Program-made: the position numbers and the translations under genes
Notes under the pieces: generated by a model
Seen by the model: only the letters and a program-made list of their open reading frames with translations
The model's database searches: none
What the model was told of the DNA's origin: nothing
In this document: piece after piece, positions 7,380 to 25,035 of the stretch
Numbering within the stretch: position 1 is the first letter of the stretch
Layout of the letters: every line of letters starts with the position of its first letter
Source of the DNA: an uncultured Acidobacteriota bacterium
GTDB lineage: Bacteria; Acidobacteriota; Thermoanaerobaculia; Multivoradales; UBA5704
Assembly (NCBI GenBank): GCA_963698025.1
Contig: OY969112.1
Coordinates: 1,341,242-1,405,241, forward strand
DNA length: 64,000 bases
Direction of reading: 5' to 3'

Positions 7380-8704
7380 GCCCGCCGTCCCGCCACGTCC
7401 GCGATCAGGATCCGGTCCCATTCCGGAACGACCGCCGTGGTGGCGGCGAGCAGGGCGAGGCCGACCCCCGAGGAGCCGGTGAGGAAGCCAGGATCGGAGC
7501 GCCAGGCGAGCTCCTCCCCCTCCCCCACCACCCACATCTCGAAGCCGCCCACTCCCACACCCGGCTTGCGGTAGGCCAGGGTCCGCTCGATCCAGGCGAG
7601 GGCGGCGTTCCGGAAAGTCGGCTCGCCGGTCGCCTGGTAGAACCGGTTGTAGAGATGGGCCGCGCCGGCCGCGCCATGGCAGATCCCGGCGTCGACGACC
7701 CCGGACTTCTCCGGCTCGCGCGAGACGGTGGCGCGGGCGACCTCGACGGCCTCGCGCTCCCACCCCGCCTCCCCCACCGCGCGCGCCGCCACCAGCAGGG
7801 AGGCGGCGATGCCAAGGTCGCCGTAGCACCAGGCGAGGCGGCTGGAGCGCGGCTCGACGCCGGATGCCACGTTGTAAGAGAAGGTCGATTCCGACCCCGC
7901 CGGCAGCTTCTGGGCGAGCAGCCAGGCGACGGCGCCGTCCAGGAGCTCGCGAGCGTCGACGCCGGCGGCGCAGCTTTCAGCCAGGATGCCGATCACTCCG
8001 GGCATGCCGTGGGCGACGCCGAGATTGAAGTTCCCCTCCGGAAAGGTCTCCAGCTCGCTCTCCATCATGAGGTCGGGCCCGGTGCGCCAGGTCACCCCCT
8101 CGGGCCGGCGCTCCGCGATCTCCGCGAGGCGGGCCACCACCTTCTCCAGGCACTCCCTGCCGCCGGGCCGGGGGAGACGCTCCAGGGCGTAGACCCCGAA
8201 GCCCACGAGCCCCGAGATGAGGTCGTAGTGCCCCCGCCAGGGGGAGAGGCCGAGGTGCTCGATGAGCGCCGCGGTGACCTCCTCGCCCGGGTCCTCCCCG
8301 TCGTCCTCGAACAGCCTCCCGCGCAGGTGCTCCAGCGTCCAGGCGACGCCCGAGAAGCCGCTGTAGAGGCCGGGCGGGGCCTGTACGACCCCGGTGGTGT
8401 CGATCGCCCGCTCGAGCAGCGCCATCGCGAGGTCGTCGTACCCCTCACCCGGCCGGACCGGGTCGAGATAGGTGAAGAAGGCGGCCACCCCCGCGTCCCC
8501 ACCGGCCAGCGAGGGCCCCCGGCGGTGCCAGCCCGGCGACTCCGGACGCGGCTCGTCGAGGGATTTGCGGAGATCGGCGGCGATGTCATCGACCACGCGC
8601 AGGGCTTCGTCCGCGGCTTCGGCGGTCAGGATCGGGGACCAGTTGGGGATCGTCTCGGCGCTCATCAGGCGCGAGAGTCTATCGCGCCCGGAGCCGCTGC
8701 CCAA
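7376..8704 (-). CDS. lanC: LanC-like lanthionine cyclase
   Basis: LanC zinc-ligand motifs WCYGDLG and CHGAAGAAH, plus GxxG repeats (SGFSGVAW, HGMPGV). Convergent with lanB, with stop codons overlapping. An alternative start is M14 at 8665. Confidence 0.85.
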   Translation of the reverse strand: MGSGSGRDRLSRLMSAETIPNWSPILTAEAADEALRVVDDIAADLRKSLDEPRPESPGWHRRGPSLAGGDAGVAAFFTYLDPVRPGEGYDDLAMALLERAIDTTGVVQAPPGLYSGFSGVAWTLEHLRGRLFEDDGEDPGEEVTAALIEHLGLSPWRGHYDLISGLVGFGVYALERLPRPGGRECLEKVVARLAEIAERRPEGVTWRTGPDLMMESELETFPEGNFNLGVAHGMPGVIGILAESCAAGVDARELLDGAVAWLLAQKLPAGSESTFSYNVASGVEPRSSRLAWCYGDLGIAASLLVAARAVGEAGWEREAVEVARATVSREPEKSGVVDAGICHGAAGAAHLYNRFYQATGEPTFRNAALAWIERTLAYRKPGVGVGGFEMWVVGEGEELAWRSDPGFLTGSSGVGLALLAATTAVVPEWDRILIADVAGRRA

Positions 8705-8757
8705 ACCGGCCCGCCGACAGCCGCCCAGGTGCCGGGCCAGCTGATATCCTTGCCACC

Positions 8758-9936
8758 ATGCGCCGGCTCCATCTGACGACCGGCGGTGAGAGCCACGGAC
8801 CCGGCCTCACCGCGATCCTTACCGGACTGCCCGCCGGACTGCGGGTGGACTTCGACCTCCTGGCCCGCGACCTCGCCCGCCGCCAGCACGGCTTCGGCCG
8901 CGGGCGCCGCATGCAGATCGAGAAGGACGCCGCCGAGGTGCGCGGCGGCGTGCGCGGGGGCGAGACCCTGGGCTCCCCCCTGGTGCTCTGGATCCAGAAC
9001 CGCGATTACGTGAGCTGGGAGCGGATCATGGGCCCCGAGACGGTCGATCCCCATCTGGTGGAGACGCGCCGCCTCAGGTCGCCGCGGCCGGGGCACACCG
9101 ACCTCGCGGGGGGGATCAAGTACCAGCGGCGGGACCTGCGCGACATCCTCGAGCGCGCCTCCGCCCGCGAGACCACCGCCCGCGTGGCGGCCGGTGCCTT
9201 CGCCCGCATGCTGCTGGCGGAATTCGGGATCGAGATCCGCAGCGGCGTCCGCTCCCTGGGGCCGATCGGCGCCGACGCGCCGGTCCCCGCCTGGGCGGAT
9301 CTCCTCAACGTGGACGAGACCTCGCCGTTGCGGGCGATCGACCGCGCGCTGGAGCCCGAGATGGTCCGCCTGGTCGAGCGGGCCAAGGAGGAGGGGGACA
9401 CGCTAGGGGGCGCGGTGACGGTGATCGCCCGCGGGGTCCCCCCGGGGCTCGGCTCGCACGTGCAGTGGGACGAGAAGCTCGACGGTCGCCTCGCCCAGGC
9501 GATCCTCTCGATCCACGCCGTCAAGGCGGTGGAGATCGGCGCCGGCGTCACCGCCTCCCAGGGGTTCGGCAGCGCCGCCCACGACGCCATCGAGAGGACG
9601 GAGGACGGCCGCTGGGTCCGCCCCACCAACCGTGCCGGCGGCCTCGAAGGGGGGGTCACCAACGGCGAGGACGTGGTGATCACCGCCTACAAGAAGCCGA
9701 TCGCCACCCTCCGCAAGGGGCTGCCGAGCGTCGACCTCGACACCCTGGAGGCGCGCACCTCGCAGTACGAGCGCAGCGACGTCACCGCGCTCCCCGCCGC
9801 CGGCGTCATCGCCGAGTCCATGGTTGCCCTGGTGCTGGCCGACGCCCTGCTGGAGAAGCTGGGGGGGGACTCGATGGTGGAGGTTCGTGCGCACTGGGAG
9901 GCCACGGCCGCGCAGCAGCGGGCGTGGCCGGGGTGA
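8758..9936 (+). CDS. aroC: Chorismate synthase
   Basis: N-terminus TTGGESHGPGL and overall AroC-like sequence; 392 aa. Confidence 0.95.
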   Translation: MRRLHLTTGGESHGPGLTAILTGLPAGLRVDFDLLARDLARRQHGFGRGRRMQIEKDAAEVRGGVRGGETLGSPLVLWIQNRDYVSWERIMGPETVDPHLVETRRLRSPRPGHTDLAGGIKYQRRDLRDILERASARETTARVAAGAFARMLLAEFGIEIRSGVRSLGPIGADAPVPAWADLLNVDETSPLRAIDRALEPEMVRLVERAKEEGDTLGGAVTVIARGVPPGLGSHVQWDEKLDGRLAQAILSIHAVKAVEIGAGVTASQGFGSAAHDAIERTEDGRWVRPTNRAGGLEGGVTNGEDVVITAYKKPIATLRKGLPSVDLDTLEARTSQYERSDVTALPAAGVIAESMVALVLADALLEKLGGDSMVEVRAHWEATAAQQRAWPG

Positions 9937-15160: not shown

Positions 15161-16114
15161 ATGCCCGCGCCACCCCTCTCGATCGTCATTCCGACGCATG
15201 ACACGCGGGATCTGACCCTGCGCTGCCTGGATTCGCTCTTCGCCTCCCCCGTCCCTGGAATGGAGGTGATCCTGGTCGACGACGCGAGCCGGGACGGCAC
15301 GGCCGGGGCGGCGCGGCAGCGCCATCCGGGAGTGGCCGTGCTGCGCAACGAGGAGCCGGCCCGCTTCACCGGGGCGGCGAACCGCGGCCTCGCGCAGGCC
15401 GCGGGCGAGATCCTCCTGCTCCTCAACAGCGACACCGAGGTCGGGCCGGGCGGGCTCGGGCGGCTGGCGGAGATCTTCGCACGCGAGCCGGCCCTGGGCA
15501 TCGCGGGCGCCCGGCTCCACTACCCCGACGGCTCGCCACAGTGGAGCGGCGGCCGCGAGCCCACCCTCGCCTGGTTCTTCGTCCTGACCAGCGGCCTGCC
15601 CGCCCTGCTGGCGCGGCTGCCGCTCTACCGGCGGCGAGTCAGGCCGCTCGACCTCGCCGGCCCGGCGGCGGTCGACTGGGTGACCGGCGCCGCCATGGCG
15701 TTCCGGCGCGCGGTCTGGGAGGCGGCGGGTCCGCTCGACGAGGGTTTCCGCTTCTACGCCCAGGACCTCGACTTCTGCCTGCGCGCCCGGCGCTCCGGCT
15801 TCGCGGTCGAGGTGCGGCCGGAGCTGCGGGTGCTCCACCACCACGGTGCGACGATCGGCCGCGCCGCCGGCGCCCGCGGCCACCAGCACCCGGAGCTGCT
15901 CTGGAGCGACCTCCTGCGCTGGGCCCGCAAGCACCGCGGCGGACCCTGGGCGGCGCGCGCCGAGACCGCCCTGCGGGCCGGTGTCCGCCTGCGCCGCGCC
16001 GCCCACGCGGTTGCCGGACCGTTCGCGGGGAGCGCCGCGCGCGCGGCCTGGAAGGAAGACGACCGGGCGGCGCGCGGGGCGATGGAGGCACTGGAGAGCG
16101 ATGCGGCCCCATAG
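15161..16114 (+). CDS. Family 2 glycosyltransferase
   Basis: GT2 signature LSIVIPTHD...VILVDDASRDGT...LLLNSDTEV. Confidence 0.85.
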   Translation: MPAPPLSIVIPTHDTRDLTLRCLDSLFASPVPGMEVILVDDASRDGTAGAARQRHPGVAVLRNEEPARFTGAANRGLAQAAGEILLLLNSDTEVGPGGLGRLAEIFAREPALGIAGARLHYPDGSPQWSGGREPTLAWFFVLTSGLPALLARLPLYRRRVRPLDLAGPAAVDWVTGAAMAFRRAVWEAAGPLDEGFRFYAQDLDFCLRARRSGFAVEVRPELRVLHHHGATIGRAAGARGHQHPELLWSDLLRWARKHRGGPWAARAETALRAGVRLRRAAHAVAGPFAGSAARAAWKEDDRAARGAMEALESDAAP

Positions 16115-16405
16115 GGCGGCGAACTATTCCCCCAGCGTGTGCTCGACTTCCTCCGCCTCTCTCGAAAGTAGCTGTCGAACGCGGCGCGTTCGCCGCCATC
16201 ACCGCACCATCCTCTGGCCGACGCCCGCCAGAGGTTTCCATGCCCGAACAAACGCCTCGCCGGGCTCCCGAAGAGGTCGTTGCCGACCCAGCGGGACCAT
16301 TGACCTGGCTAACGCAAATCCTTATCCTCGAATTCTGTTGACCCGCATCATTAGATTTCCGGTTGCGGAAGCCTTGCTCCCAACAGGGGCCGGAGGACGT
16401 CGTAG

Positions 16406-17356
16406 ATGCCAAGTGAATTCCCCACGTCCTCAACGCTGCCGTTGAAGTCGCTTCGCCCAGGTGCGTGCGTTCTCGGCGCCTTGGCTCTCTTTGCCTGCCT
16501 TCAGGTTCGGGCCCAAGCTTCTTGTCTAACGCCCTCAGCGCTCGCGGGTGCCTGGACCGAACGGGGAACCGCAAATCAAGTCCGCTTCGAGGCCGCCCGG
16601 GTCATCCTTCGGGAGAAGGGCTTATTGAGGACGGCGACGATCTTGCGCAGTGAGCCGTGCGAGATCGTGGTGCGCGATCAAGGGGTGCTTGCTACCTGGA
16701 CGCTCAAAGCGAACGAGAGCAGCGCACCCGAGTTCGACCAAGGGAAGGGCGCCGTCCAGCTTGATCGCATGCCCGAGATCCCATCTTCACTTGATATCAA
16801 TCCTTTCCCGCTTCCTCCTCCGGGGCCGGTCCCCGCCGAAAAGATGAAGGAGATCGCGGCGGAGCTCGTGGCTCGAGAAGCAAGAGATCAGGCGGCCTTC
16901 AAGTCCGACAAGGATAAGCGGCCCGCGATCCTCGACGACAATATCCGCTATCTTAGGGAAGTAGTAGCGCGCTACGGCTGGATCGATATCCCGCGGTTCG
17001 GCAAAGCGGCGGCGGCGGCGGCGATTCTCATTGTCAAGCACTCGTCTGATCTGCCTCTTCTCCAGGATGCTCTTCCCGTGGCGGAAAGGGATGCCAAGGA
17101 AAACGGCGGCGGCAAGGAGTTGGTGTCCATCCTGGTTGATGAGGTGCTCATAAGCACGGGGCACAAACAGAAGTACGGCACTCAGATTGCCGACGACGAG
17201 CACGGCAAACCCTACGTCATTCCCGTAGAGGATCTTGGGAAGGTCGAAGAGTACCGCAAGGAGCTCGGTATTCTCACCTGGAAGGACTACCTCAAGAAAG
17301 CAAGCGATTTCCTCTACGACGGTCAGACCATACGGATTCCTGGGCCAGAAGAGTGA
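16406..17356 (+). CDS. Secreted or lipo-protein of unknown function (DUF6624-like C-terminal half)
   Basis: An N-terminal signal or lipobox-like segment (GALALFAC). The C-terminal region IVKHSSDLPLLQDALP...HKQKYGTQI resembles DUF6624-type proteins. It is the first gene of the lower-G+C island. Confidence 0.55.
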   Translation: MPSEFPTSSTLPLKSLRPGACVLGALALFACLQVRAQASCLTPSALAGAWTERGTANQVRFEAARVILREKGLLRTATILRSEPCEIVVRDQGVLATWTLKANESSAPEFDQGKGAVQLDRMPEIPSSLDINPFPLPPPGPVPAEKMKEIAAELVAREARDQAAFKSDKDKRPAILDDNIRYLREVVARYGWIDIPRFGKAAAAAAILIVKHSSDLPLLQDALPVAERDAKENGGGKELVSILVDEVLISTGHKQKYGTQIADDEHGKPYVIPVEDLGKVEEYRKELGILTWKDYLKKASDFLYDGQTIRIPGPEE

Positions 17357-17405
17357 ACGACGACTGGGCGCTGATGCCCAGCTTCGCGTTACAGAAAGGG
17401 AACCA

Positions 17406-17564
17406 ATGCACAAGACTAGTCAGAAGGAACGGGTGCTCGCGCGGGTTCTGGCGGCGGAGCTTGCGAAGGTTCATGGTGGCGGTGATCCGGTTTCAACCAC
17501 GGTCGGGCCTTCGGGAAGAAAAGACATCACGGATGCCAATAACGGTGATAGCCTGGAATACTGA
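17406..17564 (+). CDS. Graspetide (omega-ester/amide RiPP) precursor peptide, 52 aa
   Basis: MHKTSQKERVLARVLAAELAKVHGGGDPVSTTVGPSGRKDITDANNGDSLEY. An RBS-like AAAGGGAA lies upstream. It has a helical leader with an LARVL motif and a Thr/Ser/Lys plus Asp/Glu-rich C-terminal core. It lies directly upstream of the ATP-grasp maturase. Confidence 0.6.
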   Translation: MHKTSQKERVLARVLAAELAKVHGGGDPVSTTVGPSGRKDITDANNGDSLEY

Positions 17565-17578
17565 GACCTGAGAGCTTG

Positions 17579-17610
17579 GCGGGAGGTCGCGTGCCTAAAC
17601 GACCTCCCGC
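17579..17610 (+). promoter_or_regulatory. Intercistronic stem-loop between precursor and maturase (putative attenuator or processing site)
   Basis: Perfect 11-bp stem gcgggaggtcg / cgacctcccgc with a 10-nt loop and no U-tract. Confidence 0.5.
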
Positions 17611-17631
17611 TCCGATCCCAAGGGAGCCGGT

Positions 17632-18738
17632 GTGCCAAAAAGAATTCTTATTCTTACCGAGGCGGACGATATTCATGCGATGGCCGTCATGGAGGCGCTT
17701 CTCCGAAAGGGCGCGGAGGTGACCTCATGGGCCACCTCGGACTTTCCCTCCCGATCGGATGAAAGCGTCCTATATCGCGCCAATGGAACAAAGAACCTGC
17801 GTATTCGCAGCGCCGAGCTCGATCTCGAGAATCCCGTCTTTGATGTCGTTTGGCGTCGTCGGCCTGCCTTTGTCCTTGATCCAGACGCGCTCCATCCCGC
17901 CGACCTGAAGTTCGCCGAGAGTGAGTGCGGCATGTTCCGGCGGTCGCTTCTACGCCTTATTGCTCCACGTGCATTTTGGGTAAATCCTCCTGACGGTGCC
18001 GCCCTCGCGGGAAGCAAGCTCCTTCAGCATGAGACGGCGCGAACGATCGGCTTAACTATGCCCGAAACCCTCTTCACGAACAGCCCTACCGAGATCCGCA
18101 ATTTTCTTGGGCGCGGCAGACAGGTCATCTATAAGCCTCTCTCCGGCGGCGGCTGGATGAATAAGGACAGTCGATTTTTCTCGTATACCGCTCTCCTCTC
18201 GGAAGCTGACCTGGTTACCGATGATGTCTTGCGACAAACTCCAGGCATTTTCCAGGAGCTCGTGCCCAAGGCGTACGAGCTCCGGGTCACCGTAATGGGC
18301 AAACACGTTCTTGCCGCAAGAGTGCTCTCGCAAGAGACCGAGAGAGGAAGACTTGATTGGAGGCAGTCCTACGACGAGCTGCAATTTAGGCCAGACAGCC
18401 TACCGCCTTCCGTTGAAGACCAGTGCCGCGCGCTCCTCGATGCGTTGGGACTGGTCTTTGGCTGCTTCGATTTCATCGTCACGCCGGAGGGCGAGCATGT
18501 CTTTCTTGAAGTGAATGAGATGGGACAATTTCTTTTCATCGAGCGATATTGCGGCCTGCCGCTCCTCGATGCGTTTTCCGAATTTTTACTCCAGGGAAGG
18601 GTGGACTTCGACTGGAGCGCCGATAGTGTCCAGGTGCGCTACGGGGACCCGGAGTTTGAAAGGGCCGCCCTTGCGCGTTGGGCTGCGTTTCAATCCTCCC
18701 ACTGCTCGGTTCCCGAATCTCTTGCCGATGAGGCTTGA
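17632..18738 (+). CDS. ATP-grasp ribosomal peptide maturase (MdnB/MdnC, MvdC/D-like)
   Basis: GTG start preceded by AGGGAG. The N-terminus ILILTEADDIHAMAVMEAL and the VVWRRRP segment resemble microviridin-type ATP-grasp ligases. It has an ATP-grasp fold layout; 368 aa. Confidence 0.8.
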   Translation: MPKRILILTEADDIHAMAVMEALLRKGAEVTSWATSDFPSRSDESVLYRANGTKNLRIRSAELDLENPVFDVVWRRRPAFVLDPDALHPADLKFAESECGMFRRSLLRLIAPRAFWVNPPDGAALAGSKLLQHETARTIGLTMPETLFTNSPTEIRNFLGRGRQVIYKPLSGGGWMNKDSRFFSYTALLSEADLVTDDVLRQTPGIFQELVPKAYELRVTVMGKHVLAARVLSQETERGRLDWRQSYDELQFRPDSLPPSVEDQCRALLDALGLVFGCFDFIVTPEGEHVFLEVNEMGQFLFIERYCGLPLLDAFSEFLLQGRVDFDWSADSVQVRYGDPEFERAALARWAAFQSSHCSVPESLADEA

Positions 18739-18798
18739 ACGAAGACCGACCGGGTGTCCGTAGTCAATCCAGCAATCGTCGGATCGATCCTTCAGCCA

Positions 18799-20265
18799 TT
18801 AGGTTCCTTTGCCAGCGGGAGGGACCGAGCGCCTAACCTTCTCGATCTCGGCTACGACCTGCCGTGCCAGTCCAGCGGTTGCGTTCTCCTCGCGGGCGGC
18901 GTCAAAGAAGAGCCTCAGCGCGGCCAGGGCTTCGCGGTGAACCCCTTTAGCCTTGAAAATCCATCCCATGGCGACCGCCAGCTCCTTCACCTCCACCGTG
19001 CGTCCGGCCTCCAGCCAGAGCACGGCCAACTCGAGCGAGGAGAGCGCCGCGTCATAGGCAAGCTCGCGGGCCGTAAAGTCCCTCCGCACCTGCTCCAGGC
19101 CGGCGATCGCCACCTCGAATCGACCCTCTCCTGCTGCGATCCTGGATTCCAGCCAGATCACGCGCGTGAGGTCCAGCTCGTTGCCCTGCTGGACGGCCCA
19201 CTCACGCACCTTGGGCATCAGCTCCGCAGCCTCCGCGTGGCGCGAGAGGAGATAGAGGTTGTTCGCAGTATCGAAACGGAGGCAAAGGATGAGGCGCGGG
19301 TCGCCCGAATCTTCAACGAAAGGAGCTGCCTCCGTTAAGGCCGCTAGAGCGTTCTCGGAGTCGCCCATCTGTTCAAAGACATTGCCCATTTTCAGGAGGA
19401 TACGCGCCGACGCCTCCTGATGATCTCGACTGGCTGCGCGGGCTCGATCGAGCAGTTCAAGGGCCGCCAAAAACCGGAGTTGGGCGCGCCGCAGGGAAGC
19501 TTCGAGAGAGAACAGGTGCCACTCGGCGAGTAGCTCGGGGTGGGAGTCGGCTCCGGCCCGCCAGAGATCCCAAGCTTGGACGAACGCCTTTTCGGCGCCG
19601 CCAAGGTCGTTGGCGACCCGCCGGGCGTTAGCGAGGTATGCCCAGCAATATCCCTTCAAGCGCGAGCGCCAGCTCTCCTCCCCCTGAACCTGCTCTGCGA
19701 TGGAGAGAGCGAGCCCGGCAAGCTCCAAAGCCTCCGCGGCGTTGTGGGCTGCCCGCTTTACGCTCGCCAAACACACCTGGACGGCAAGGGCCCAATTCCC
19801 GGAGCGGGGAGAGAGCTGGATGAGCCGGCTACGAAACCGGACCGGGTGCCGTTCGAGGGCTTCCCAGACCTTTGCCGCTTCCCGGAGCTCTTGATCCGAA
19901 GAAGGCCGGGGCATCTCCGCGGTGTGGGTTTCATTCAAATAGGCTGTCACCGCCAGGAGAACCGGTTCCAGGATTGCGAGGTCGAGCGCGCTGCCGGCCG
20001 GGGCCGCATTAGGCCGAGCCGCCGAGGCGAGGACCGAAGTGTAGGACTGGCGGAGATGGACGACCAGGGGCCATGCGATCCGCGCGACCTTCGCCATGCG
20101 CCGCAGGGCTTCTTCGGAGGGTGCAAGGTGGCCCAACTCGTAGCGGGAGACTTCGGCCTGATTGACTCTCGACGCCTTCCCAAATTGCGCCTGGGTCATC
20201 TGGGCATGGGATCGCAAAAAGATCACCACCTGCCTCAGAACCGCCGGATCACCCCGCTTCGCCAT
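18799..20265 (-). CDS. XRE-family HTH plus TPR-repeat regulator (paralog 1)
   Basis: An N-terminal HTH (MTQAQFGKASRVNQAEVSRYELG) and a long TPR-like helical repeat C-terminal region. The C-terminal ~290 aa are near-identical to the 20678-22180 product. Confidence 0.8.
   Translation of the reverse strand: MAKRGDPAVLRQVVIFLRSHAQMTQAQFGKASRVNQAEVSRYELGHLAPSEEALRRMAKVARIAWPLVVHLRQSYTSVLASAARPNAAPAGSALDLAILEPVLLAVTAYLNETHTAEMPRPSSDQELREAAKVWEALERHPVRFRSRLIQLSPRSGNWALAVQVCLASVKRAAHNAAEALELAGLALSIAEQVQGEESWRSRLKGYCWAYLANARRVANDLGGAEKAFVQAWDLWRAGADSHPELLAEWHLFSLEASLRRAQLRFLAALELLDRARAASRDHQEASARILLKMGNVFEQMGDSENALAALTEAAPFVEDSGDPRLILCLRFDTANNLYLLSRHAEAAELMPKVREWAVQQGNELDLTRVIWLESRIAAGEGRFEVAIAGLEQVRRDFTARELAYDAALSSLELAVLWLEAGRTVEVKELAVAMGWIFKAKGVHREALAALRLFFDAAREENATAGLARQVVAEIEKVRRSVPPAGKGT
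18827..19680. repeat. Copy A of a ~0.85-kb direct repeat (3' halves of the two HTH-TPR genes)
   Basis: Collinear with 20715-21568 at a constant offset of 1888 bp at both checked ends. About nine in ten positions are identical by eye. Confidence 0.85.
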
Positions 20266-20375
20266 CCTTTACCCCCCGAGATGGACATAGGTCATGTGGA
20301 TTTGGTCCACTTTCCCTGGAGAGCCGCCCCCACGGCCAAGGAGGCCGCGGTGGAGCGCCCTCCAAGGGAGCCGCC

Positions 20376-20672
20376 ATGCTCACCGTCTCGCTGCGTCGCA
20401 AAACCCACTTCCTCCTTCTAGTCGCGGTCATGGTCGCCACTCCATGGGCCTCAGCTGCCAGCACAAATCCCAGCCCACGGTCAGTGCAAGCCGTGGAACC
20501 GGCCTCGCTGGAGCTCTTCAGTCGCATCTGGGATTTCTTCCGAAGCGCCGGCAGCAAGGCAGGCTGCCGCATCGACCCGAACGGCCTCTGCGCCGACCGA
20601 CCAGATCAGAACCCTCCCCCTCTGACGAAAGAAGGTTGCCGCCTCGACCCGGACGGCCGCTGCCTTTTCTAG
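20376..20672 (+). CDS. Small secreted peptide (98 aa) with two GCR[IL]DP[ND]G[LR]C repeats
   Basis: A good RBS (AAGGGAG, 5-nt spacer), a Sec signal peptide with ASA|AS, high-G+C third-position codon bias, and two 10-aa Cys-bounded repeats at 20562-20591 and 20634-20663. Confidence 0.6.
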   Translation: MLTVSLRRKTHFLLLVAVMVATPWASAASTNPSPRSVQAVEPASLELFSRIWDFFRSAGSKAGCRIDPNGLCADRPDQNPPPLTKEGCRLDPDGRCLF

Positions 20673-20677
20673 CCCCT

Positions 20678-22180
20678 TCACTCTCGGTCTCTCCCTTTGC
20701 TGGCAAGAGAGGCCGAGCGCCTCACCTTCTCGATCTCGGTTACGACCTGCCGTGCTAGCCCAGCGGTTGCGCTCTCCTGGCGGGCGGCGTGAGAGAAGAG
20801 CCTCAGCGCGGCCAGGGCTTCGCGGTGAATCCCCTCGGCCCTGAAGATCCAGCCCATGGCGACCGCCAGCTCCTTCACCTCCGCCGTCCGCCCGGCCTCC
20901 AACCAGAGCACGGCCAAGTCGAGGGAGGAGAGCGCCGCATCATAGGCAAGCTCGCGAGTCGTAAACTCCTTTCGCACCTGCTCCAGGCCGGCGATCGCTT
21001 CCTCGGTTCGACCCGCTCCCGCCGCGACCCTGGATTCCAACCAGACCACGCGGGTCAGGTCCAGCTCGTTGCCCTGCTGGACGGCCCACTCGCGCACCTT
21101 GGGCAGCAGCTCCGCAGCCTCCGCATAGCGCGAGAGAAGGTAGAGGTTGTTCGCGGTGTCAAAGCGGAGACAAAGGATGAGGCGCGGATTGCCCGAATCC
21201 TCGACGAAAGGAGCGGCCTGCCTCAAAGCTGCTAAAGCGTTCTCGGAGTCACCCATCTGTTCAAGAACATTGCCTTTTTTCAGTAGGATGCGCGCGGACG
21301 CCGCCTGATAATCTTGACTGGCTTCTCGGGCTCGATCGAGCAGCTTCAGAGCCGCTGAAAACCGATGTTGGGCTCGCCGAAGGGAAGCTTCGAGGGAGAG
21401 TAGGCGCCACTCGGCAAGCAGCCCGGGGTCCGAGCCGTTTCCTGCGCGCCAGAGGTCCCACGCTCGACCGAACGCCTCGTTGGCGCCGGCGAGGTCGTTG
21501 GCGACCCGGCGGGCGTTGGCCACGTGGGCCCAACAGTAGCCCTTGAGGCGCGAATGCCAGCTCTCCGCGTCCGGAATCCGCTCGGCGACCGACAGGGCGA
21601 GCTCCGCCAACTCCAGAGCCTCGTCGGGCCTGTTCACCGTTTGCTTCAGGCTCTCCTCGCAGAGTCGAGCGGCCAACGCCCAATTCCAGTAGTCGGGGAA
21701 CGCCTCGACCAGGGCGCTACGCTCCTTGCGGGTGCCAGCCATCAACCCGCGAAACAGCTCCTCGGCTTCCTGTCTGGCGGCTTCCGCCTTCTCCTGCTTC
21801 CCGCGGCGGATCAGCTCGCTCCGGACTTCCTCGGCAGCGACATGCCCTGCCGTCCAACCGGCGGCCATGGTGGCGCGGTCGATCGCCCGGTGCTCCTCCC
21901 GGGAGAGGGTGATCGGCGAGGAGGGCTCGTCAAGAGGCTCCTGGAAGATCAGACGGTGGGCGAAGAGGAGAACGTCCACGGCTTCCGAGGGATAGCCCAA
22001 AGGTTCGACGAGGGATTCCAGCTGCTCCCGGGTCAGCGGTTTGGCCCCCCGTTCATAATGCGAGATCAGGGATTCATCCGCGAGCCCCAGAGCGCGGGCC
22101 AGTCGACTCTTGGACCAAGCCGCCGCGGAGCGCAGGTAGGCCAGCGCGAGTCCGAAGGGCGAGAGGGGTCGTTCCAGCAA
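20678..22180 (-). CDS. XRE-family HTH plus TPR-repeat regulator (paralog 2)
   Basis: An N-terminal HTH (WSKSRLARALGLADESLISHYERG) and a TPR-like C-terminal region, paralogous to the 18799-20265 product. Confidence 0.8.
   Translation of the reverse strand: MLERPLSPFGLALAYLRSAAAWSKSRLARALGLADESLISHYERGAKPLTREQLESLVEPLGYPSEAVDVLLFAHRLIFQEPLDEPSSPITLSREEHRAIDRATMAAGWTAGHVAAEEVRSELIRRGKQEKAEAARQEAEELFRGLMAGTRKERSALVEAFPDYWNWALAARLCEESLKQTVNRPDEALELAELALSVAERIPDAESWHSRLKGYCWAHVANARRVANDLAGANEAFGRAWDLWRAGNGSDPGLLAEWRLLSLEASLRRAQHRFSAALKLLDRAREASQDYQAASARILLKKGNVLEQMGDSENALAALRQAAPFVEDSGNPRLILCLRFDTANNLYLLSRYAEAAELLPKVREWAVQQGNELDLTRVVWLESRVAAGAGRTEEAIAGLEQVRKEFTTRELAYDAALSSLDLAVLWLEAGRTAEVKELAVAMGWIFRAEGIHREALAALRLFSHAARQESATAGLARQVVTEIEKVRRSASLASKGRDRE
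20715..21568. repeat. Copy B of the ~0.85-kb direct repeat
   Basis: See 18827-19680. Confidence 0.85.
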
Positions 22181-22325
22181 TCCATGCCTCCTCGTGCAGA
22201 TGCCTACAAAGCTAGGTTGCCGCCAAGCCGCTTTCCGTGACAGGCGAACGCGACTTTTTTCTAGTTGACACGCGCTATGACCCTCTCACCATACCTCAAG
22301 AGATTCTAAGTTCCTTGGGCACGGG

Positions 22326-22583
22326 TTGGCGCAACTTCTCCTACCCTGCCTCTCCATGCAGATTCGATGTGAACGGGAAGCAGCTTTAGGCAGTCGATAC
22401 CATCCTCCTACAGACCAGTTGGAGCGCTTCCTGCGGGGTGAGCTTCCACGTCACGAAGTGCGCATCGTCGTTCGCCACCTTTTGACCCGCTGCGCGGAGT
22501 GCGTTTCGGTGACCCGCCGGGTCTTGGAGCTCGGGGACCGGGCACCCGTCGGCCTGGGAAGCCGGCAAAGGGGGGCACGGTGA
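22326..22583 (+). CDS. Small protein with zf-HC2-like (anti-sigma-type) motif
   Basis: LERFLRGELPRHEVRIVVRHLLTRCAECV fits the H-x3-C-x2-C putative zinc-finger of anti-sigma factors. No TM segment. The start is uncertain (TTG at 22326 or ATG at 22356). It is divergent from paralog 2. Confidence 0.4.
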   Translation: MAQLLLPCLSMQIRCEREAALGSRYHPPTDQLERFLRGELPRHEVRIVVRHLLTRCAECVSVTRRVLELGDRAPVGLGSRQRGAR

Positions 22584-22864
22584 CGGAGCCGCCGGAAATC
22601 CTTGTGGCCAAGGCGAGAGAGCAGGTTCGGAGGATCTTGGAGCACCTGGAGGAGATCCGTTGGCAGCTCCTCGGCATCACGCTCAGCCTCCCCGAGCCGG
22701 TGGCGGAGCAGGTCCGGCTTTTGGCCGTGGCCGATGAAATGGACGCGACGACCGAGTTGCGGACGGTCATCCATTGCGTCCTGGAGGACTGCATTCGTCC
22801 GGCGGTCGAGGATCTTCAGGGGGCCTTATCGAACAAGGTTTCGGAATCCGACCGTAGAGGGTGA
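22580..22864 (+). CDS. Hypothetical protein, translationally coupled to the preceding ORF
   Basis: The GTG start overlaps the upstream stop (GTGA). The 94-aa helical acidic protein has no recognisable family. Confidence 0.35.
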   Translation: MTEPPEILVAKAREQVRRILEHLEEIRWQLLGITLSLPEPVAEQVRLLAVADEMDATTELRTVIHCVLEDCIRPAVEDLQGALSNKVSESDRRG

Positions 22865-23092
22865 GCCCGCCGAGCATGAGACCGAAGTTTCCACCTGTGC
22901 TTGGGCCCGGGGTCTCAACAGAGAGGGCGCGCGGCGTCTACCCCACGCCTTGGGCGCTGACTCGGTTTGCGGTCCGCTCGCGAGGGAGGATGGGAGGGGC
23001 CGGGAGAAGAAGCCCGGGATGATGAGGGCCCCGCTTGCCATCCCGCCCCATAGAGTGTAGAAAGCCTCCGGCCCACCGCGGGCCGAACCCCT

Positions 23093-23869
23093 ATGCTCGA
23101 AATCTACCGCTATCGCGACCTCATCTTCGCCCTCGTGGCCCGGGAGCTGAAAGTGCGCTACCGGCGCTCGGCCATCGGCTTCACCTGGACCATGCTGCAG
23201 CCGCTGCTGATGATGCTGGTGCTCCAGGTGGTCTTCAACTCGCTGTTCAAGTTCAGGCTGCCCGAGGGGACCAACTATCCGGTCTACGCGCTCTCCGGCA
23301 TCCTGTTCTGGAACTTCTTCAGCCAGAGCATCCTCGCCTCGATGAACAGCCTGCGGGCGAACGCGGCCATCCTGCGCAAGCTGCCGGTGCCCAAGGAGGT
23401 CTTCCCGCTGGCGACCGTCATCTCCGGGGTCATCAACCTCCTCCTGGCGGTGGTGCCGCTGCTGCTCATCATGCTGATGACCGGCCAGCCGGTCGGGCCC
23501 TCGCTGCTGTTCCTGCCGGTCTCGATCCTGCTCGCCGCCCTGTTCACCCTCGGCGCCGGGCTGCTGCTCTCGCCGCTGTCGGTCTTCTTCACCGACGTCG
23601 TGGAGATGATCGGCGTGCTGCTCTCGATCCTCATGTACCTGACGCCGATCTTCTACCCGATGAAGATCCTGGAGAGCTCCCGCTACCTGCCGCTGGTGCG
23701 CTACAACCCGGTGCGGTCGATCCTCGAGGTCTTCCGCGATCCGATCTTCCTCGGCAAGGTCCCACCGCTGACCCATCTCGGCGTCTCCGCCGGCATCGCG
23801 CTGATGGCGCTCCTGATCGGCGGCTACGCCTTCCGGCGCAGCAGCGACCGCATCCCCTTCTACATCTGA
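23093..23869 (+). CDS. ABC-2 type exporter permease (Wzm/TagG/KpsM-like)
   Basis: A 258-aa protein with about 6 TM segments and the family-typical N-terminus YRDLIFALVARELKVRYRRSAIGFTWTMLQP. Confidence 0.85.
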   Translation: MLEIYRYRDLIFALVARELKVRYRRSAIGFTWTMLQPLLMMLVLQVVFNSLFKFRLPEGTNYPVYALSGILFWNFFSQSILASMNSLRANAAILRKLPVPKEVFPLATVISGVINLLLAVVPLLLIMLMTGQPVGPSLLFLPVSILLAALFTLGAGLLLSPLSVFFTDVVEMIGVLLSILMYLTPIFYPMKILESSRYLPLVRYNPVRSILEVFRDPIFLGKVPPLTHLGVSAGIALMALLIGGYAFRRSSDRIPFYI

Positions 23870-24651
23870 TGGAGGACCTCAGCATCCGCCTGGAGGCGGT
23901 CTCCCTCTGCTACCGGCTGGCCAAGCAGCGGGTCCCCTCCATCAAGGAATACGCCATCCACTTCCTGCGCGGGTCGCTCTCCTACGAGCAGCTGTGGGCG
24001 CTGCGCGACATCGACCTCACCGTGCGGCGCGGCGAGACGCTGGGGATCATCGGCCGCAACGGCGCCGGCAAGAGCACGATGCTCAAGGTGATCTCCAAGG
24101 TCCTCAAGCCCACGAAGGGGAACGCCCGGATCAGCGGCAGGGTGGCGCCCATCCTGGAGCTCGGCAGCGGCTTCGACTATGAGCTGACCGGCCTCGAGAA
24201 CGTCTACCTGAACGCCCTCCTGCTCGGCCACACCAAGCGGGATATCGCGGCGAAGGTCGACGAGATCGTCGACTTCAGCGGCCTCGGCGACTTCATCCGC
24301 TCGCCGCTGCGCAACTACTCCTCCGGCATGCAGGCCCGCCTCGGCTTCTCGATCGCCACCGCCTGGGTGCCGGACATCCTGATCCTCGACGAGGTGCTCT
24401 CGGTGGGGGACGCCACCTTCACCGGCCGCTGCGAGGAGCGCATCCAGAGCTTCCACGATTCCGGCGCGACCGTGCTCATCGTCTCCCACGCCGTCCAGGC
24501 CATCACCAAGAACTGCACGCGCTGCATCTGGCTCGACGACGGCCAGATGAAGGCGGACGGCAAGACCGAAGAGGTCGTCAATCTCTACCTGCGCGAGCAC
24601 GGCACCGAGCCCGGCCAGCACGCCGGCGGCCGGGCCCCCACCGCTCCCTGA
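23869..24651 (+). CDS. ABC exporter ATP-binding protein (Wzt/TagH/KpsT-like, no C-terminal glycan-binding domain)
   Basis: The ATG overlaps the permease stop by one base (TGATG; TGA at 23867-23869). It has Walker A GRNGAGKST, the signature YSSGMQARL, Walker B ILILDE and the TagH-like ILELGSGF motif. Confidence 0.9.
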   Translation: MEDLSIRLEAVSLCYRLAKQRVPSIKEYAIHFLRGSLSYEQLWALRDIDLTVRRGETLGIIGRNGAGKSTMLKVISKVLKPTKGNARISGRVAPILELGSGFDYELTGLENVYLNALLLGHTKRDIAAKVDEIVDFSGLGDFIRSPLRNYSSGMQARLGFSIATAWVPDILILDEVLSVGDATFTGRCEERIQSFHDSGATVLIVSHAVQAITKNCTRCIWLDDGQMKADGKTEEVVNLYLREHGTEPGQHAGGRAPTAP

Positions 24652-24715
24652 ATTTTTGCTGCGAGCTTTCCAGGGGCGCTCAGCGCCCTCGAATGGGCTG
24701 ATGCGTCCCCTTCAA

Positions 24716-24920
24716 GGGCTGATGCGTCCCCCATCAATTTTGCTGCGTCCCTCGGGATCGCCGTCTCCGCCCTCGAACGGGCGGGGCTGTCCCACGGAAT
24801 GGCTGCTGCGAAATCATGTTGACTCACAGCAAATCGCGAGAGGGCCGCTGCGTACCCTCCGAGGGCCGGGACGCCCCTCCTGGGGGACGCAGCAAAATTG
24901 ACGAGGGACGCATCAGCCCC
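24716..24920. repeat. ~205-bp element bounded by ~37-bp imperfect inverted repeats (MITE-like element or operator cluster)
   Basis: The left arm is gggctgatgcgtcccccatcaattttgctgcgtccc (24716-24751). The right arm is gggacgcagcaaaattgacgagggacgcatcagcccc (24884-24920). An extra direct copy of gggctgatgcgtcccc lies at 24695-24710. Confidence 0.7.
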
Positions 24921-25035
24921 AGAGGGGGCGGGCTCCGCCCGCAGAGATCCGGGCCCGCGCTCCGGCCTGTTCACATCGCCCCCTCCCTGTTATGATGCCA
25001 AAAACTTGTTACTCGCAGCATGCATGGAGGATCCC

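What the first reader, a model, noticed from the sequence alone, without database searches (positions are those of the whole stretch)
17406..18738. Minimal graspetide (ATP-grasp RiPP) locus with an unannotated 52-aa precursor
The 52-aa ORF is hidden inside a longer track ORF (17235-17564), starts at 17406, and has an RBS. It encodes MHKTSQKERVLARVLAAELAKVHGGG-DPVSTTVGPSGRKDITDANNGDSLEY. The next gene is a microviridin-type ATP-grasp ligase. Established knowledge: MdnB/MdnC-type ligases bind a helical leader motif (PFFARFL in microviridins; here ERVLARVLAAEL). They cross-link Thr/Ser/Lys side chains to Asp/Glu carboxylates in the core. The putative core has T,T,S,K,T donors and D,D,D,E acceptors but does not match the microviridin KYPSD core. 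It is therefore likely a different or novel graspetide topology. No GNAT, protease or exporter gene is adjacent.
Basis: partly seen in the sequence, partly recalled or inferred. Interest (0 to 1): 0.75.

Follow-up and report, generated by a model that had tools for sequence, protein, structure and literature searches.

The report
Acidobacterial graspetide gene cluster with DUF6624 partner
This is a real but uncharacterised ribosomal-peptide (graspetide) gene cluster: a conserved 52-residue precursor next to the ATP-grasp enzyme that should cross-link it, and it is not "minimal", because a secreted protein of unknown function (DUF6624) and two regulators travel with it.

Summary
The 52-aa ORF (17406-17564) is a real gene. 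It has 52-53-aa homologues directly upstream of orthologous ligases, and it is under purifying selection (pN 0.19-0.26, pS 0.66-1.0). The downstream ATP-grasp (17632-18738) matches only RiPP maturases (TIGR04187 1.3e-69; PDB MdnB, MdnC, CdnC, PsnB) and keeps the DxR motif. RimK and GshB hits are negligible.

The precursor belongs to a family of at least 90 distinct peptides. All share the leader RVLARVLAE[ED]L, which ends in a canonical double-glycine motif (ELxxVxGG). The core motif is T…D-Φ-T-x(4-6)-D, so it is not microviridin.

"Minimal" is wrong. A secreted DUF6624 protein (16406-17356) lies next to the ligase in 26 of 43 related loci, in all four orientations. HTH-TPR regulators lie nearby in 19 of 43.

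DUF6624 association with graspetide groups 18, 20, 23 and 42 has been published (Carter 2026; compare Makarova 2022 "cluster 23"), but the protein is uncharacterised. Its AlphaFold model is confident (pLDDT 88): a β-barrel plus a helical domain with no PDB relative. No C39 exporter lies in the window.

Ring topology, product function and the DUF6624 role remain inferred. Verdict: new member of a known kind, moderate interest.

The parts
16406..17356 (+). DUF6624 protein (316 aa). Sec-type signal peptide (about residues 1-38, ...VRAQA|SC). N-terminal 8-stranded beta-barrel (about residues 40-121, with conserved Cys40 and Cys85). C-terminal all-helical DUF6624 domain (144-303).
   Evidence: Pfam PF20329, E 5.5e-11. 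There are 72 homologues, nearly all PF20329. Conserved motifs are GWIDIPRFG, KH, E227, D229, E238, D245 and YGTQ. The AF2 model has pLDDT 87.9 and pTM 0.80. No significant PDB fold or sequence match was found. The gene lies next to the ligase in 26 of 43 related loci, in four different arrangements.
17406..17564 (+). Graspetide precursor gene (52 aa plus stop). The leader is residues 1-25 (17406-17480) and contains RVLARVLAAEL followed by E(-8)L(-7)xxV(-4)xG(-2)G(-1). The predicted core is residues 26-52 (17481-17561): GDPVSTTVGPSGRKDITDANNGDSLEY.
   Evidence: sequence; homologues, invariant columns; family of at least 90 distinct peptides; purifying selection; motif statistics.
17578..17611 (+). 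Stem-loop with a 12-bp stem and 10-nt loop, starting 14 nt after the precursor stop codon and before the ligase RBS. It has no T-tract.
   Evidence: The fold of 17555-17640 is -37.2 kcal/mol, z -3.3. A hairpin with an uninterrupted stem of at least 8 bp follows the precursor stop in 33 of 50 family precursor genes although the sequences differ. Median z is -2.2. The function is inferred: an attenuator or mRNA-stabilising hairpin that sets the precursor:enzyme ratio.
17632..18738 (+). ATP-grasp graspetide synthetase (368 aa, GTG start preceded by AAGGGAG).
   Evidence: NCBIfam: TIGR04187 1.3e-69, MvdD 1.6e-50, MvdC 8.5e-49; RimK only 1.2e-5. PDB: MdnB 5ig8 6e-37, MdnC 5ig9, AMdnB 7m4s, CdnC 7mgv, 9bou, PsnB 7drm. 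D242-W243-R244 is invariant, as are D280, E293 and N295. The public call P0001 (352 aa) starts 16 codons too late.
18799..20265 (-). HTH(XRE)-TPR regulator 1 (488 aa), convergent with the ligase gene; 60-bp gap.
   Evidence: Pfam HTH_31, HTH_3 and TPR_12. The same family occurs in 19 of 43 related loci, often as tandem pairs.
20678..22180 (-). HTH(XRE)-TPR regulator 2 (500 aa), a tandem paralogue. Its C-terminal ~340 aa are 85-90% identical to regulator 1. Its N-terminal ~150 aa (DNA-binding part) are only ~25% identical.
   Evidence: (repeat D1).

Best explanation
The region 16406-22180 is a graspetide (ATP-grasp RiPP) gene cluster of an uncharacterised, mainly acidobacterial family.

**Proposed pathway**
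1. DUF6624, the precursor and the ligase are probably co-transcribed. The gaps are 49 and 67 bp. A stem-loop after the precursor gene probably raises the precursor:enzyme ratio.
2. The amphipathic leader helix RVLARVLAAEL docks on the ligase, as PFFARFL does on MdnB/MdnC. The ligase uses ATP to activate Asp side chains in the core and closes omega-ester rings with Thr hydroxyls.
3. The family-wide conserved residues are T32, D40, T42 and D48. At least two lactones are therefore expected. Candidates are T42-D48 (i to i+6, the same spacing as the microviridin T-D ring) plus a ring from T32. K39, S36, D27 and D43 are possible subtype-specific extras.
4. The leader ends in a textbook double-glycine signal (E18 L19 x x V22 x G24 G25). 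The modified peptide is therefore most likely cleaved and exported by a C39-peptidase ABC exporter, or an equivalent, encoded outside this window.
5. The DUF6624 protein has a signal peptide and a conserved Cys pair, so it is extracytoplasmic. It must act after export, as a tailoring or processing enzyme, a binding/carrier protein or an immunity protein.
6. The two HTH-TPR proteins are the pathway regulators.

**Shown:** gene reality, family memberships, conservation and co-occurrence.
**Inferred:** linkage pattern, export route, DUF6624 role, hairpin role, regulator role and product bioactivity.
For: **Ligase identity.**

**Precursor reality and linkage to the ligase.**

**Leader and core conservation.** Invariant columns include R9-A16 (RVLARVLA), E18, L19, V22, G24, D27-V29, T32, S36, G37, K39, D40, T42-N45, G47 and D48 within the subtype. 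D-Φ-T/S occurs in 74 of 90 distinct family peptides, with acidic residues 5-7 positions downstream.

**Export.** A C39 PCAT lies beside 17 of the more distant ligase relatives, which shows that the superfamily uses double-glycine export.

**DUF6624 linkage.**
- It is adjacent in 26 of 43 close loci: upstream same strand 9, upstream opposite 9, downstream opposite 6, downstream same 5.
- Starting from the DUF6624 side, 2 of 3 long contigs checked carry the cassette.
- About 20 DUF6624 homologues share a contig length with a listed ligase homologue.

**DUF6624 architecture.** Signal peptide, conserved Cys40 and Cys85, and a confident two-domain model.

[quoted passage not shown] Makarova 2022 describes an ATP-grasp-associated 'cluster 23' family with a signal peptide or lipoprotein site and conserved His and Arg, which it calls 'predicted auxiliary extracellular enzymes', and it notes TPR proteins in the same loci (PMC8939145).

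**Regulators.** Present in 19 of 43 loci.
Against: - No chemistry is available. The ring number and connectivity are guesses from conservation.
- The ligase scores below the curated cut-off of every NCBIfam RiPP-maturase model (234.8 against 350 for TIGR04187). Pfam MvdD pre-ATP-grasp also scores below its cut-off (21.1 against 27).
- No exporter or leader peptidase lies in the 64-kb window.
- DUF6624 is absent from 17 of 43 close loci, 13 of which have more than 4 kb of flank on both sides. An orphan DUF6624 also exists (L083). It is therefore not obligatory.
- The DUF6624 fold has no PDB relative, so no function can be read from it.
- The equivalence of Makarova's cluster 23 with DUF6624 is my inference, not a test.
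- The window hairpin lacks a T-tract. With mononucleotide shuffles of the 70 nt after the stop codon, its z is only -1.5.
Confidence: 0.75

Rival explanations
1. Truly minimal two-gene graspetide locus. Only the precursor and the ligase matter. DUF6624 and the HTH-TPR genes are neighbours that are inherited together but play no part in making or using the peptide.
For: - 17 of 43 close loci lack DUF6624 within the fetched flanks, and 24 of 43 lack the regulator.
- An orphan DUF6624 exists without a ligase (L083).
- Several published graspetide groups consist of ligase plus precursor only (groups 27, 28 and 35; PMC13097080).
- Many characterised graspetides need only the ligase.
Against: - DUF6624 stays next to the ligase through all four possible rearrangements of position and strand. 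It is also found beside ligases in distant lineages: Coxiellaceae L069, Oxalobacteraceae L073 and Berkiella L077.
- An all-against-all comparison of neighbouring ORFs found no other recurrent families.
- Two independent published surveys report the same association.
Confidence: 0.12
2. The peptide is a signal rather than a weapon or inhibitor. The exported cyclic peptide is sensed by the HTH-TPR proteins, directly or after re-import, to give an autoinducing circuit. This is analogous to RRNPP (HTH plus TPR) peptide receptors of Firmicutes. DUF6624 would be the periplasmic processing or binding component.
For: - HTH(XRE) plus TPR is the RRNPP domain architecture (established knowledge).
- These regulators recur with the cassette in 19 of 43 loci, often as tandem pairs.
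- In the window pair, the putative ligand-binding C-terminal 340 aa are kept 85-90% identical while the DNA-binding ends have diverged.
Against: - There is no sequence similarity to any solved RRNPP protein.
- The proteins are much larger (488-500 aa) than RRNPP receptors.
- The AF2 model was too poor to compare (pLDDT 56).
- No importer is present in the locus.
- Ordinary pathway-specific regulation explains the linkage equally well.
Confidence: 0.12
3. The ATP-grasp is a non-RiPP ligase (RimK, glutathione-synthetase or D-Ala-D-Ala-ligase type) and the small ORF is a chance reading frame.
For: JGI auto-annotation names homologues 'glutathione synthase/RimK-type ligase-like ATP-grasp enzyme'. 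There are weak Pfam GSH-S_ATP (0.0044) and NCBIfam RimK (1.2e-5) hits.
Against: - RiPP-maturase models score 45-65 orders of magnitude better than RimK or GshB.
- All six PDB matches are graspetide synthetases.
- The small ORF is conserved, under purifying selection, and syntenic.
Confidence: 0.02

Closest known systems
Microviridin system (MdnA precursor with MdnB/MdnC ATP-grasp ligases; graspetide group 1)
   Same: - Same enzyme superfamily. The best solved-structure matches are MdnB at 6e-37 and MdnC at 3e-36, aligned end to end, with the DxR motif, the Mg/ATP residues and the pre-ATP-grasp domain.
- The leader helix has the same ΦΦARΦL pattern: VLARVL against FFARFL.
- The T-x5-D spacing of T42-D48 equals that of the microviridin T-D lactone.
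   Different: - One ligase, not two.
- No KYPSD core, and no conserved Lys for a lactam across the family.
- No GNAT.
- The ligase scores far below the MvdC and MvdD equivalog cut-offs (166-172 against 425-475 bits).
- It has a double-glycine leader end and a DUF6624 partner.
DUF6624-associated graspetide groups 18, 20, 23 and 42 of the 2026 RODEO survey (Carter et al., PMC13097080). Group 42 (CPR bacteria) is ligase plus precursor plus DUF6624.
   Same: The cassette composition is the same as group 42: ligase, short precursor and DUF6624, with nothing else conserved. None of these groups has been characterised experimentally.
   Different: - The group 42 representative precursor (Ca. Komeilibacteria) does not match this family's HMM.
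- The hosts here are Acidobacteriota, not CPR.
- Groups 20 and 23 carry NHLM/PCAT exporters, which this window lacks.
- SSN membership could not be tested because the sequences and the full table are not held.
Graspetide group 27 (Ca. Angelobacter, Acidobacteriota; PMC13097080 Fig. S4)
   Same: Acidobacterial hosts. The leaders contain RVLAR...AR.L...GG and the cores end in DGD.
   Different: - Only a weak, leader-only match to this family's HMM (13.7 bits at most).
- The cores are Cys-containing.
- The group is described as ligase plus precursors only, without DUF6624.
Makarova et al. 2022 ATP-grasp branches 1, 2 and 5 with 'cluster 23' secreted proteins and TPR proteins (PMC8939145)
   Same: - A secreted uncharacterised partner with conserved His and Arg, together with TPR-containing neighbours.
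- The core signature TxxxTx(6-10)Dx(1-4)D resembles T32xxxS36x6D43x4D48 here.
   Different: - Those loci are from CPR bacteria and Bacteroidetes.
- Their leaders use Phhx(1,2)h with a Pro, which is absent here.
- The identity of cluster 23 with DUF6624 is inferred, not tested.
Rosaritide (MirA/MirB/MirC), the first partner-protein-dependent graspetide (PMC13097080)
   Same: It sets the precedent that a conserved non-ligase neighbour can be essential for graspetide formation.
   Different: MirC is a cytoplasmic PpiC-type chaperone that complexes with the ligase. DUF6624 has a signal peptide and cannot meet the ATP-dependent ligase in the cytoplasm once it has been exported.

Membership tests
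Graspetide (ATP-grasp RiPP) biosynthetic locus | ATP-grasp ligase of the MdnB/MdnC/PsnB 'ribosomal peptide maturase' clade, with a pre-ATP-grasp domain and catalytic motifs | tested here: met
   - TIGR04187 1.3e-69, TIGR04184 1.6e-50, TIGR04185 8.5e-49 and TIGR04192 5e-27. All are below the subfamily cut-offs, and all are far better than RimK at 1e-5.
- All six PDB hits are graspetide synthetases.
- DWR, D280, E293 and N295 are invariant.
- PF21068 is weak (21.1 against 27 bits) in the window protein but is precomputed in many homologues.
Graspetide (ATP-grasp RiPP) biosynthetic locus | Adjacent short precursor with a conserved leader recognition motif and a core rich in Thr/Ser/Lys donors and Asp/Glu acceptors, conserved beside orthologous ligases | tested here: met
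   Purifying selection is shown.
Graspetide (ATP-grasp RiPP) biosynthetic locus | Side-chain omega-ester or omega-amide macrocycles actually installed (-18 Da per link) | not testable with these tools
   Needs co-expression and MS/MS or NMR.
Microviridin (group 1) | TxKYPSDx(E/D)(E/D) core, PFFARFL leader, two ligases (MdnB and MdnC), GNAT acetyltransferase | tested here: not met
   - The core is GDPVSTTVGPSGRKDITDANNGDSLEY.
- There is a single ligase, with no second copy in the window.
- No GNAT is among the neighbours.
- The ligase is below the MvdC and MvdD cut-offs.
SAV_5884-type graspetides (NCBIfam TIGR04187 ligase with TIGR04186 precursor) | Ligase above the 350-bit cut-off, and precursor matching the family's target model | tested here: not met
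   The ligase scores 234.8 bits, below 350. The precursor has no NCBIfam hit at E<=0.1.
DUF6624-associated graspetide groups (Carter 2026: 18, 20, 23, 42) | PF20329 protein encoded in or next to the BGC | tested here: met
   PF20329 at 5.5e-11, 49 bp upstream of the precursor. It recurs in 26 of 43 related loci.
DUF6624-associated graspetide groups (Carter 2026: 18, 20, 23, 42) | Ligase falls in one of those SSN clusters at alignment score 70 | not testable with these tools
The stored supplement is cut within group 1. The group 42 and group 27 representative precursors do not match the family HMM.
Double-glycine (C39/PCAT-processed) leader peptides | Leader consensus with hydrophobic residues at -4, -7, -12 and -15, Glu at -8, and GG at -2/-1 | tested here: met
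   The sequence shows L11(-15), V14(-12), E18(-8), L19(-7), V22(-4), G24 and G25. These positions are conserved in the subtype alignment. 52 of 90 family peptides pass a strict regular expression.
Double-glycine (C39/PCAT-processed) leader peptides | Cognate C39-peptidase ABC exporter encoded with the precursor | tested here: not met
   tblastn with a family-associated PCAT (L036) finds nothing in the 64-kb window. A PCAT lies beside 17 distant-relative loci and only one close locus. The rest of the genome could not be searched.
RimK / glutathione-synthetase type non-RiPP ATP-grasp ligases | Best match to the RimK or GshB family models | tested here: not met
   RimK family 24.8 bits against a 143 cut-off. 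GshB 17-19 bits against about 270-300.

The most novel reading that the evidence does not exclude
DUF6624 (the helical domain, here fused to a lipocalin-like barrel) is a new class of extracytoplasmic RiPP-maturation protein. It would process, further tailor or capture the exported cyclic peptide in the periplasm. In the acidobacterial clade it may take over leader removal, since no C39 exporter is linked there. The paired HTH-TPR proteins may sense the product. This would make the cassette a horizontally mobile, low-GC, self-regulating peptide module in Acidobacteriota.
Probability: 0.2. Interest if true: 0.7.

Novelty: new member of a known kind. Interest (0 to 1): 0.45.

Why it matters
Graspetides are a fast-growing RiPP class that includes protease-inhibiting members. 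Most predicted groups have no characterised member.

This locus gives a compact, well-delimited test case from Acidobacteriota, a phylum with few studied natural products. It offers:
- a clear precursor family with its leader and core boundary;
- a short list of four conserved cross-linking residues to test;
- the DUF6624 partner, which two surveys have flagged as possibly a new biosynthetic enzyme but which nobody has characterised.

DUF6624 is secreted while the ligase is cytoplasmic. This narrows the possible roles of DUF6624 and makes them directly testable.

The work also corrects two annotation errors: the missing precursor gene and a truncated ligase start.

Tried and rejected
- **DUF6624 function from structure.** The AF2 model is good. 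Foldseek against the PDB gave no hit at E<=0.001. It gave only weak barrel matches (YxeF 2joz, lipocalin-like 4qrl, and the protease inhibitors Omp19 and LupI at probability 0.2-0.97) and nothing for the helical domain. A profile search against PDB sequences gave zero hits. Pfam at E<=10 found nothing beyond PF20329.
- **Regulator fold.** The AF2 run with a two-sequence alignment gave pLDDT 56. That is too poor for a fold search, so none was run. The PDB sequence search was empty.
- **Assignment to a published graspetide group.** Ramesh 2021 (PMC8688276) is not held. The Carter 2026 data table is cut within group 1. Only representative peptides of groups 27 and 42 could be compared, and neither matched.
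- **Second locus in the same genome.** P0133, a 66%-identical DUF6624 on a contig of the same length, could not be retrieved. There is no second copy in the window.
- **Pfam census of all neighbours through one alignment.** This exceeded the residue limit. It was replaced by all-against-all clustering plus annotation of the recurrent clusters.
- **Mobile-element boundaries of the low-GC region.** No nearby tRNA and no flanking direct repeats were found.
- **Promoter and terminator scan.** Counts were at chance level.
- **Matches of the core to giant repeat proteins.** The motif ...SGKLDITDADNGE... recurs about every 103 aa in P0199. I judged these to be motif-level resemblance, not homology.
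Full report
**1. Observation**

- ATG 17406 opens a 52-codon frame that ends at TGA 17562-17564. It lies inside the mechanical 109-aa TTG ORF 17235-17564.
- The upstream half of that long ORF overlaps the end of the preceding gene (stop 17354-17356) in another frame. It is not conserved in related loci.
- The next gene (GTG 17632 to 18738, preceded by AAGGGAG) encodes a 368-aa ATP-grasp protein.

The peptide is a real gene.
- Six 52-53-aa homologues exist in the large protein collection, at E 5e-19 to 2e-9.
- Their alignment has invariant RVLARVLA.EL and D27-P-V, T32, S36-G, K39-D, T42-D-A-N and G47-D48.
- Codon comparison with three related loci gives non-synonymous differences of 0.19-0.26 per site, against synonymous differences of 0.66-1.0.
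- The exact peptide is absent from the 15-billion-protein collection, although the ligase and regulator of the same 7.05-Mb contig are present. It is therefore uncalled in the public record.
- The public ligase call (352 aa) starts 16 codons late. The GTG start restores the conserved N-terminus, which aligns with MdnB and MdnC.

**2. The enzyme**

NCBIfam places the protein with RiPP ATP-grasp maturases. The scores are TIGR04187 SAV_5884-type 1.3e-69, MvdD 1.6e-50, MvdC 8.5e-49 and grasp-with-spasm 5e-27. RimK scores only 1.2e-5 and glutathione synthase 6e-4.

All RiPP hits are below the curated subfamily cut-offs. The protein is therefore a maturase outside the curated subfamilies.

All six matches among solved structures are graspetide synthetases: MdnB 6e-37, MdnC, AMdnB, CdnC, 9bou and PsnB. 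They align over the full length and include the DxR motif, here D242-W243-R244. That motif is invariant among 16 family members, as are D280, E293 and N295.

**3. The precursor family**

A scan of one genome per species returned 80 loci. Most are from Thermoanaerobaculia, Holophagales and other Acidobacteriota. The rest are from Myxococcota, Legionella, Lysobacter and others.

An iterated HMM finds the peptide in 38 of the 43 loci whose ligase is roughly 42-76% identical. In 30 of these it lies within 350 nt upstream on the same strand. Only 6 of the 39 more distant loci have it. Together with the representative-library search (48 hits, about 40 of them small proteins), this gives 90 distinct peptides.

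- **Leader.** All share M(R/K)K…(G/R)RVLAR(V/A)LAE(E/D)L(K/R)xVxGG. Read from the glycines, the window leader has L-15, V-12, E-8, L-7, V-4, G-2 and G-1. This is the textbook double-glycine export and cleavage consensus (established knowledge; the sequence is). The predicted core is G26-Y52.
- **Core.** The cores are variable, but 74 of 90 contain D-Φ-T/S. All 74 also have an upstream Thr or Ser, and acidic residues follow the Thr at +5/+7, +1/+6 (the window type), +6 or +5.
- **Conserved residues.** The family-wide conserved candidates are therefore T32, D40, T42 and D48. S36, K39 and D43 are subtype-specific.
- **Known precursor models.** The peptide does not match NCBIfam precursor models. 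It does not match the published representatives of groups 27 or 42 beyond a weak leader similarity.

**4. The locus is not minimal**

The gene 49 bp upstream (16406-17356) is a DUF6624 protein (PF20329, 5.5e-11).
- In L001 and L002 the order DUF6624, precursor, ligase is identical.
- Across the 43 close loci DUF6624 is adjacent in 26, in all four combinations of side and strand: 9, 9, 6 and 5. It is also adjacent in a few distant proteobacterial loci.
- Starting from DUF6624 homologues, two of the three long contigs examined carry the cassette and one is an orphan.
- About twenty more DUF6624 homologues share a contig length with a listed ligase homologue.

An all-against-all comparison of neighbouring ORFs found only one other recurrent family. 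This is the HTH(XRE)-TPR regulator, present in 19 of 43 loci and often as a tandem pair, as in the window (18799-20265 and 20678-22180, minus strand). Minor recurrent neighbours are MacB-type permeases, a TIR-STAND/WD40 pair and an unknown 450-aa protein.

**5. What DUF6624 looks like**

The protein has a Sec-type signal peptide (…ALALFACLQVRAQA|SC). It has a conserved Cys pair (C40, C85) and many invariant polar residues in the C-terminal half: W192, D194, R197, K211-H212, E227, D229, E238, D245, Q255, T259-Q260, D264, E275 and R284.

The AlphaFold model is confident (pLDDT 87.9, pTM 0.80). It shows an eight-stranded barrel (residues 40-121) followed by an all-helical domain (144-303).

Foldseek finds only weak lipocalin-like or inhibitor-like barrel matches and nothing for the helical domain. 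Profile searches of PDB sequences find nothing.

The protein is therefore extracytoplasmic, looks like an enzyme, and has an unknown fold class. It cannot assist the ATP-dependent ligation in the cytoplasm, so it must act on, bind or protect against the exported peptide.

**6. Export**

A C39-peptidase ABC exporter sits beside 17 of the distant-relative loci and only one of the 43 close loci (L036). None is in the 64-kb window. The ABC-2 pair at 23093-24651 is of the Wzm/Wzt kind. The canonical GG leader therefore implies a peptidase/exporter encoded elsewhere, or a different route. This step is inferred.

**7. Other anatomy**

A 12-bp stem-loop (17578-17611) begins 14 nt after the precursor stop codon (z -3.3). 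A hairpin with a stem of at least 8 bp occupies the same place in 33 of 50 family precursor genes although the sequences differ. Some of these hairpins have T-tracts. This fits the attenuator or stabiliser hairpins common between RiPP precursor and enzyme genes (established knowledge). Its function here is inferred.

The cassette has 58% GC against about 70% for the rest of the window. The ligase is about 10 points below its flanks in most related acidobacterial loci too. This suggests horizontal exchange. No tRNA, integrase or flanking repeats mark the borders.

**8. Comparison with what is known**

- Carter et al. 2026 (PMC13097080) surveyed more than 20,000 predicted graspetides. They report DUF6624 at high frequency in groups 18 (23.5%), 20 (63.6%), 23 and 42 (81.8%; mostly candidate-phyla bacteria). 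[quoted passage not shown]
- Makarova et al. 2022 (PMC8939145) describe an ATP-grasp-associated 'cluster 23' family. It has a signal peptide or lipoprotein site and conserved His and Arg, and they call it 'predicted auxiliary extracellular enzymes'. TPR proteins occur in the same loci, and the core signature is TxxxTx(6-10)Dx(1-4)D. I infer, but did not test, that this is the same family as DUF6624.

The kind of system is therefore known bioinformatically. This precursor family, its acidobacterial clade, the barrel-plus-DUF6624 architecture and the product itself are uncharacterised. I could not place the ligase in a numbered group.

**9. Verdict**

This is a genuine graspetide cluster and a new member of a known kind. 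It is not a microviridin and it is not minimal.

The most likely mechanism is:
1. leader-guided, ATP-dependent Thr-to-Asp lactone formation by the single ligase (at least two rings, involving T32, T42, D40 and D48);
2. double-glycine cleavage and export by machinery outside the window;
3. a post-export role for DUF6624;
4. control by the paired HTH-TPR regulators.

Confidence is high for the identity of the parts. It is moderate for DUF6624 involvement. It is low for any specific ring map or bioactivity.

Noticed in passing
window 18799-22180 (minus strand): The two tandem HTH-TPR regulator genes are mosaic paralogues. Their C-terminal ~340 aa are 85-90% identical (DNA 89% over 300 nt). Their N-terminal ~150 aa, which include the HTH, are only ~25% identical. 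This suggests gene conversion or domain-specific divergence.
   Followed up: partly
window 17632-17679: The public gene call for the ligase in this genome (P0001, 352 aa) starts at an internal ATG. The conserved N-terminus (RILILTEADD, aligned to MdnB/MdnC) needs the GTG at 17632.
   Followed up: yes
window 16000-25000: This is a low-GC block (57-66%, with the cassette at 58%) in a ~70-76% GC background. The ligase gene is also ~10 GC points below its flanks in most related acidobacterial loci. No tRNA, integrase or flanking repeats were found.
   Followed up: partly
The genome probably holds a second DUF6624 gene, and perhaps a second graspetide locus. It could not be retrieved.
   Followed up: partly
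L012, L013, L019, L035, L036 (e.g. L035:1575-4016, L012:4220-5521): A TIR-nSTAND1 NTPase gene and a WD40 gene lie next to the graspetide cassette in five related loci. This association is unexplained.
   Followed up: no
L009, L022, L028 (e.g. L009:6001-7119 and 8502-9602): Some related loci carry two divergent ligase genes that flank an unknown 450-aa protein with no Pfam hit. They also carry a different precursor subtype (RVLARVHADDL…TDPTWALxDH).
   Followed up: no
window 17493-17552 (core residues 30-49); proteins P0199, P0200, P0202: The core motif SGRKDITDANNGD resembles a motif (…SGKLDITDADNGE…) that recurs about every 103 aa in giant repeat proteins of 3,000-4,900 aa. It is probably a Ca-binding-loop-like motif and not homology.
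   Followed up: partly
L084:5001-6774: This locus has DUF6624 and the precursor, followed by only a ~196-aa ligase fragment, on a nanopore-derived contig. It is either a decayed cassette or a frameshift error.
   Followed up: partly
window 22326-22583 and 23093-24651: Downstream of the regulators lie a small ORF with an HxxxCxxC-like motif (no Pfam hit) and a Wzm/Wzt-type ABC-2 exporter pair. They are not conserved with the cassette, apart from generic ABC ATPase similarity.
   Followed up: partly
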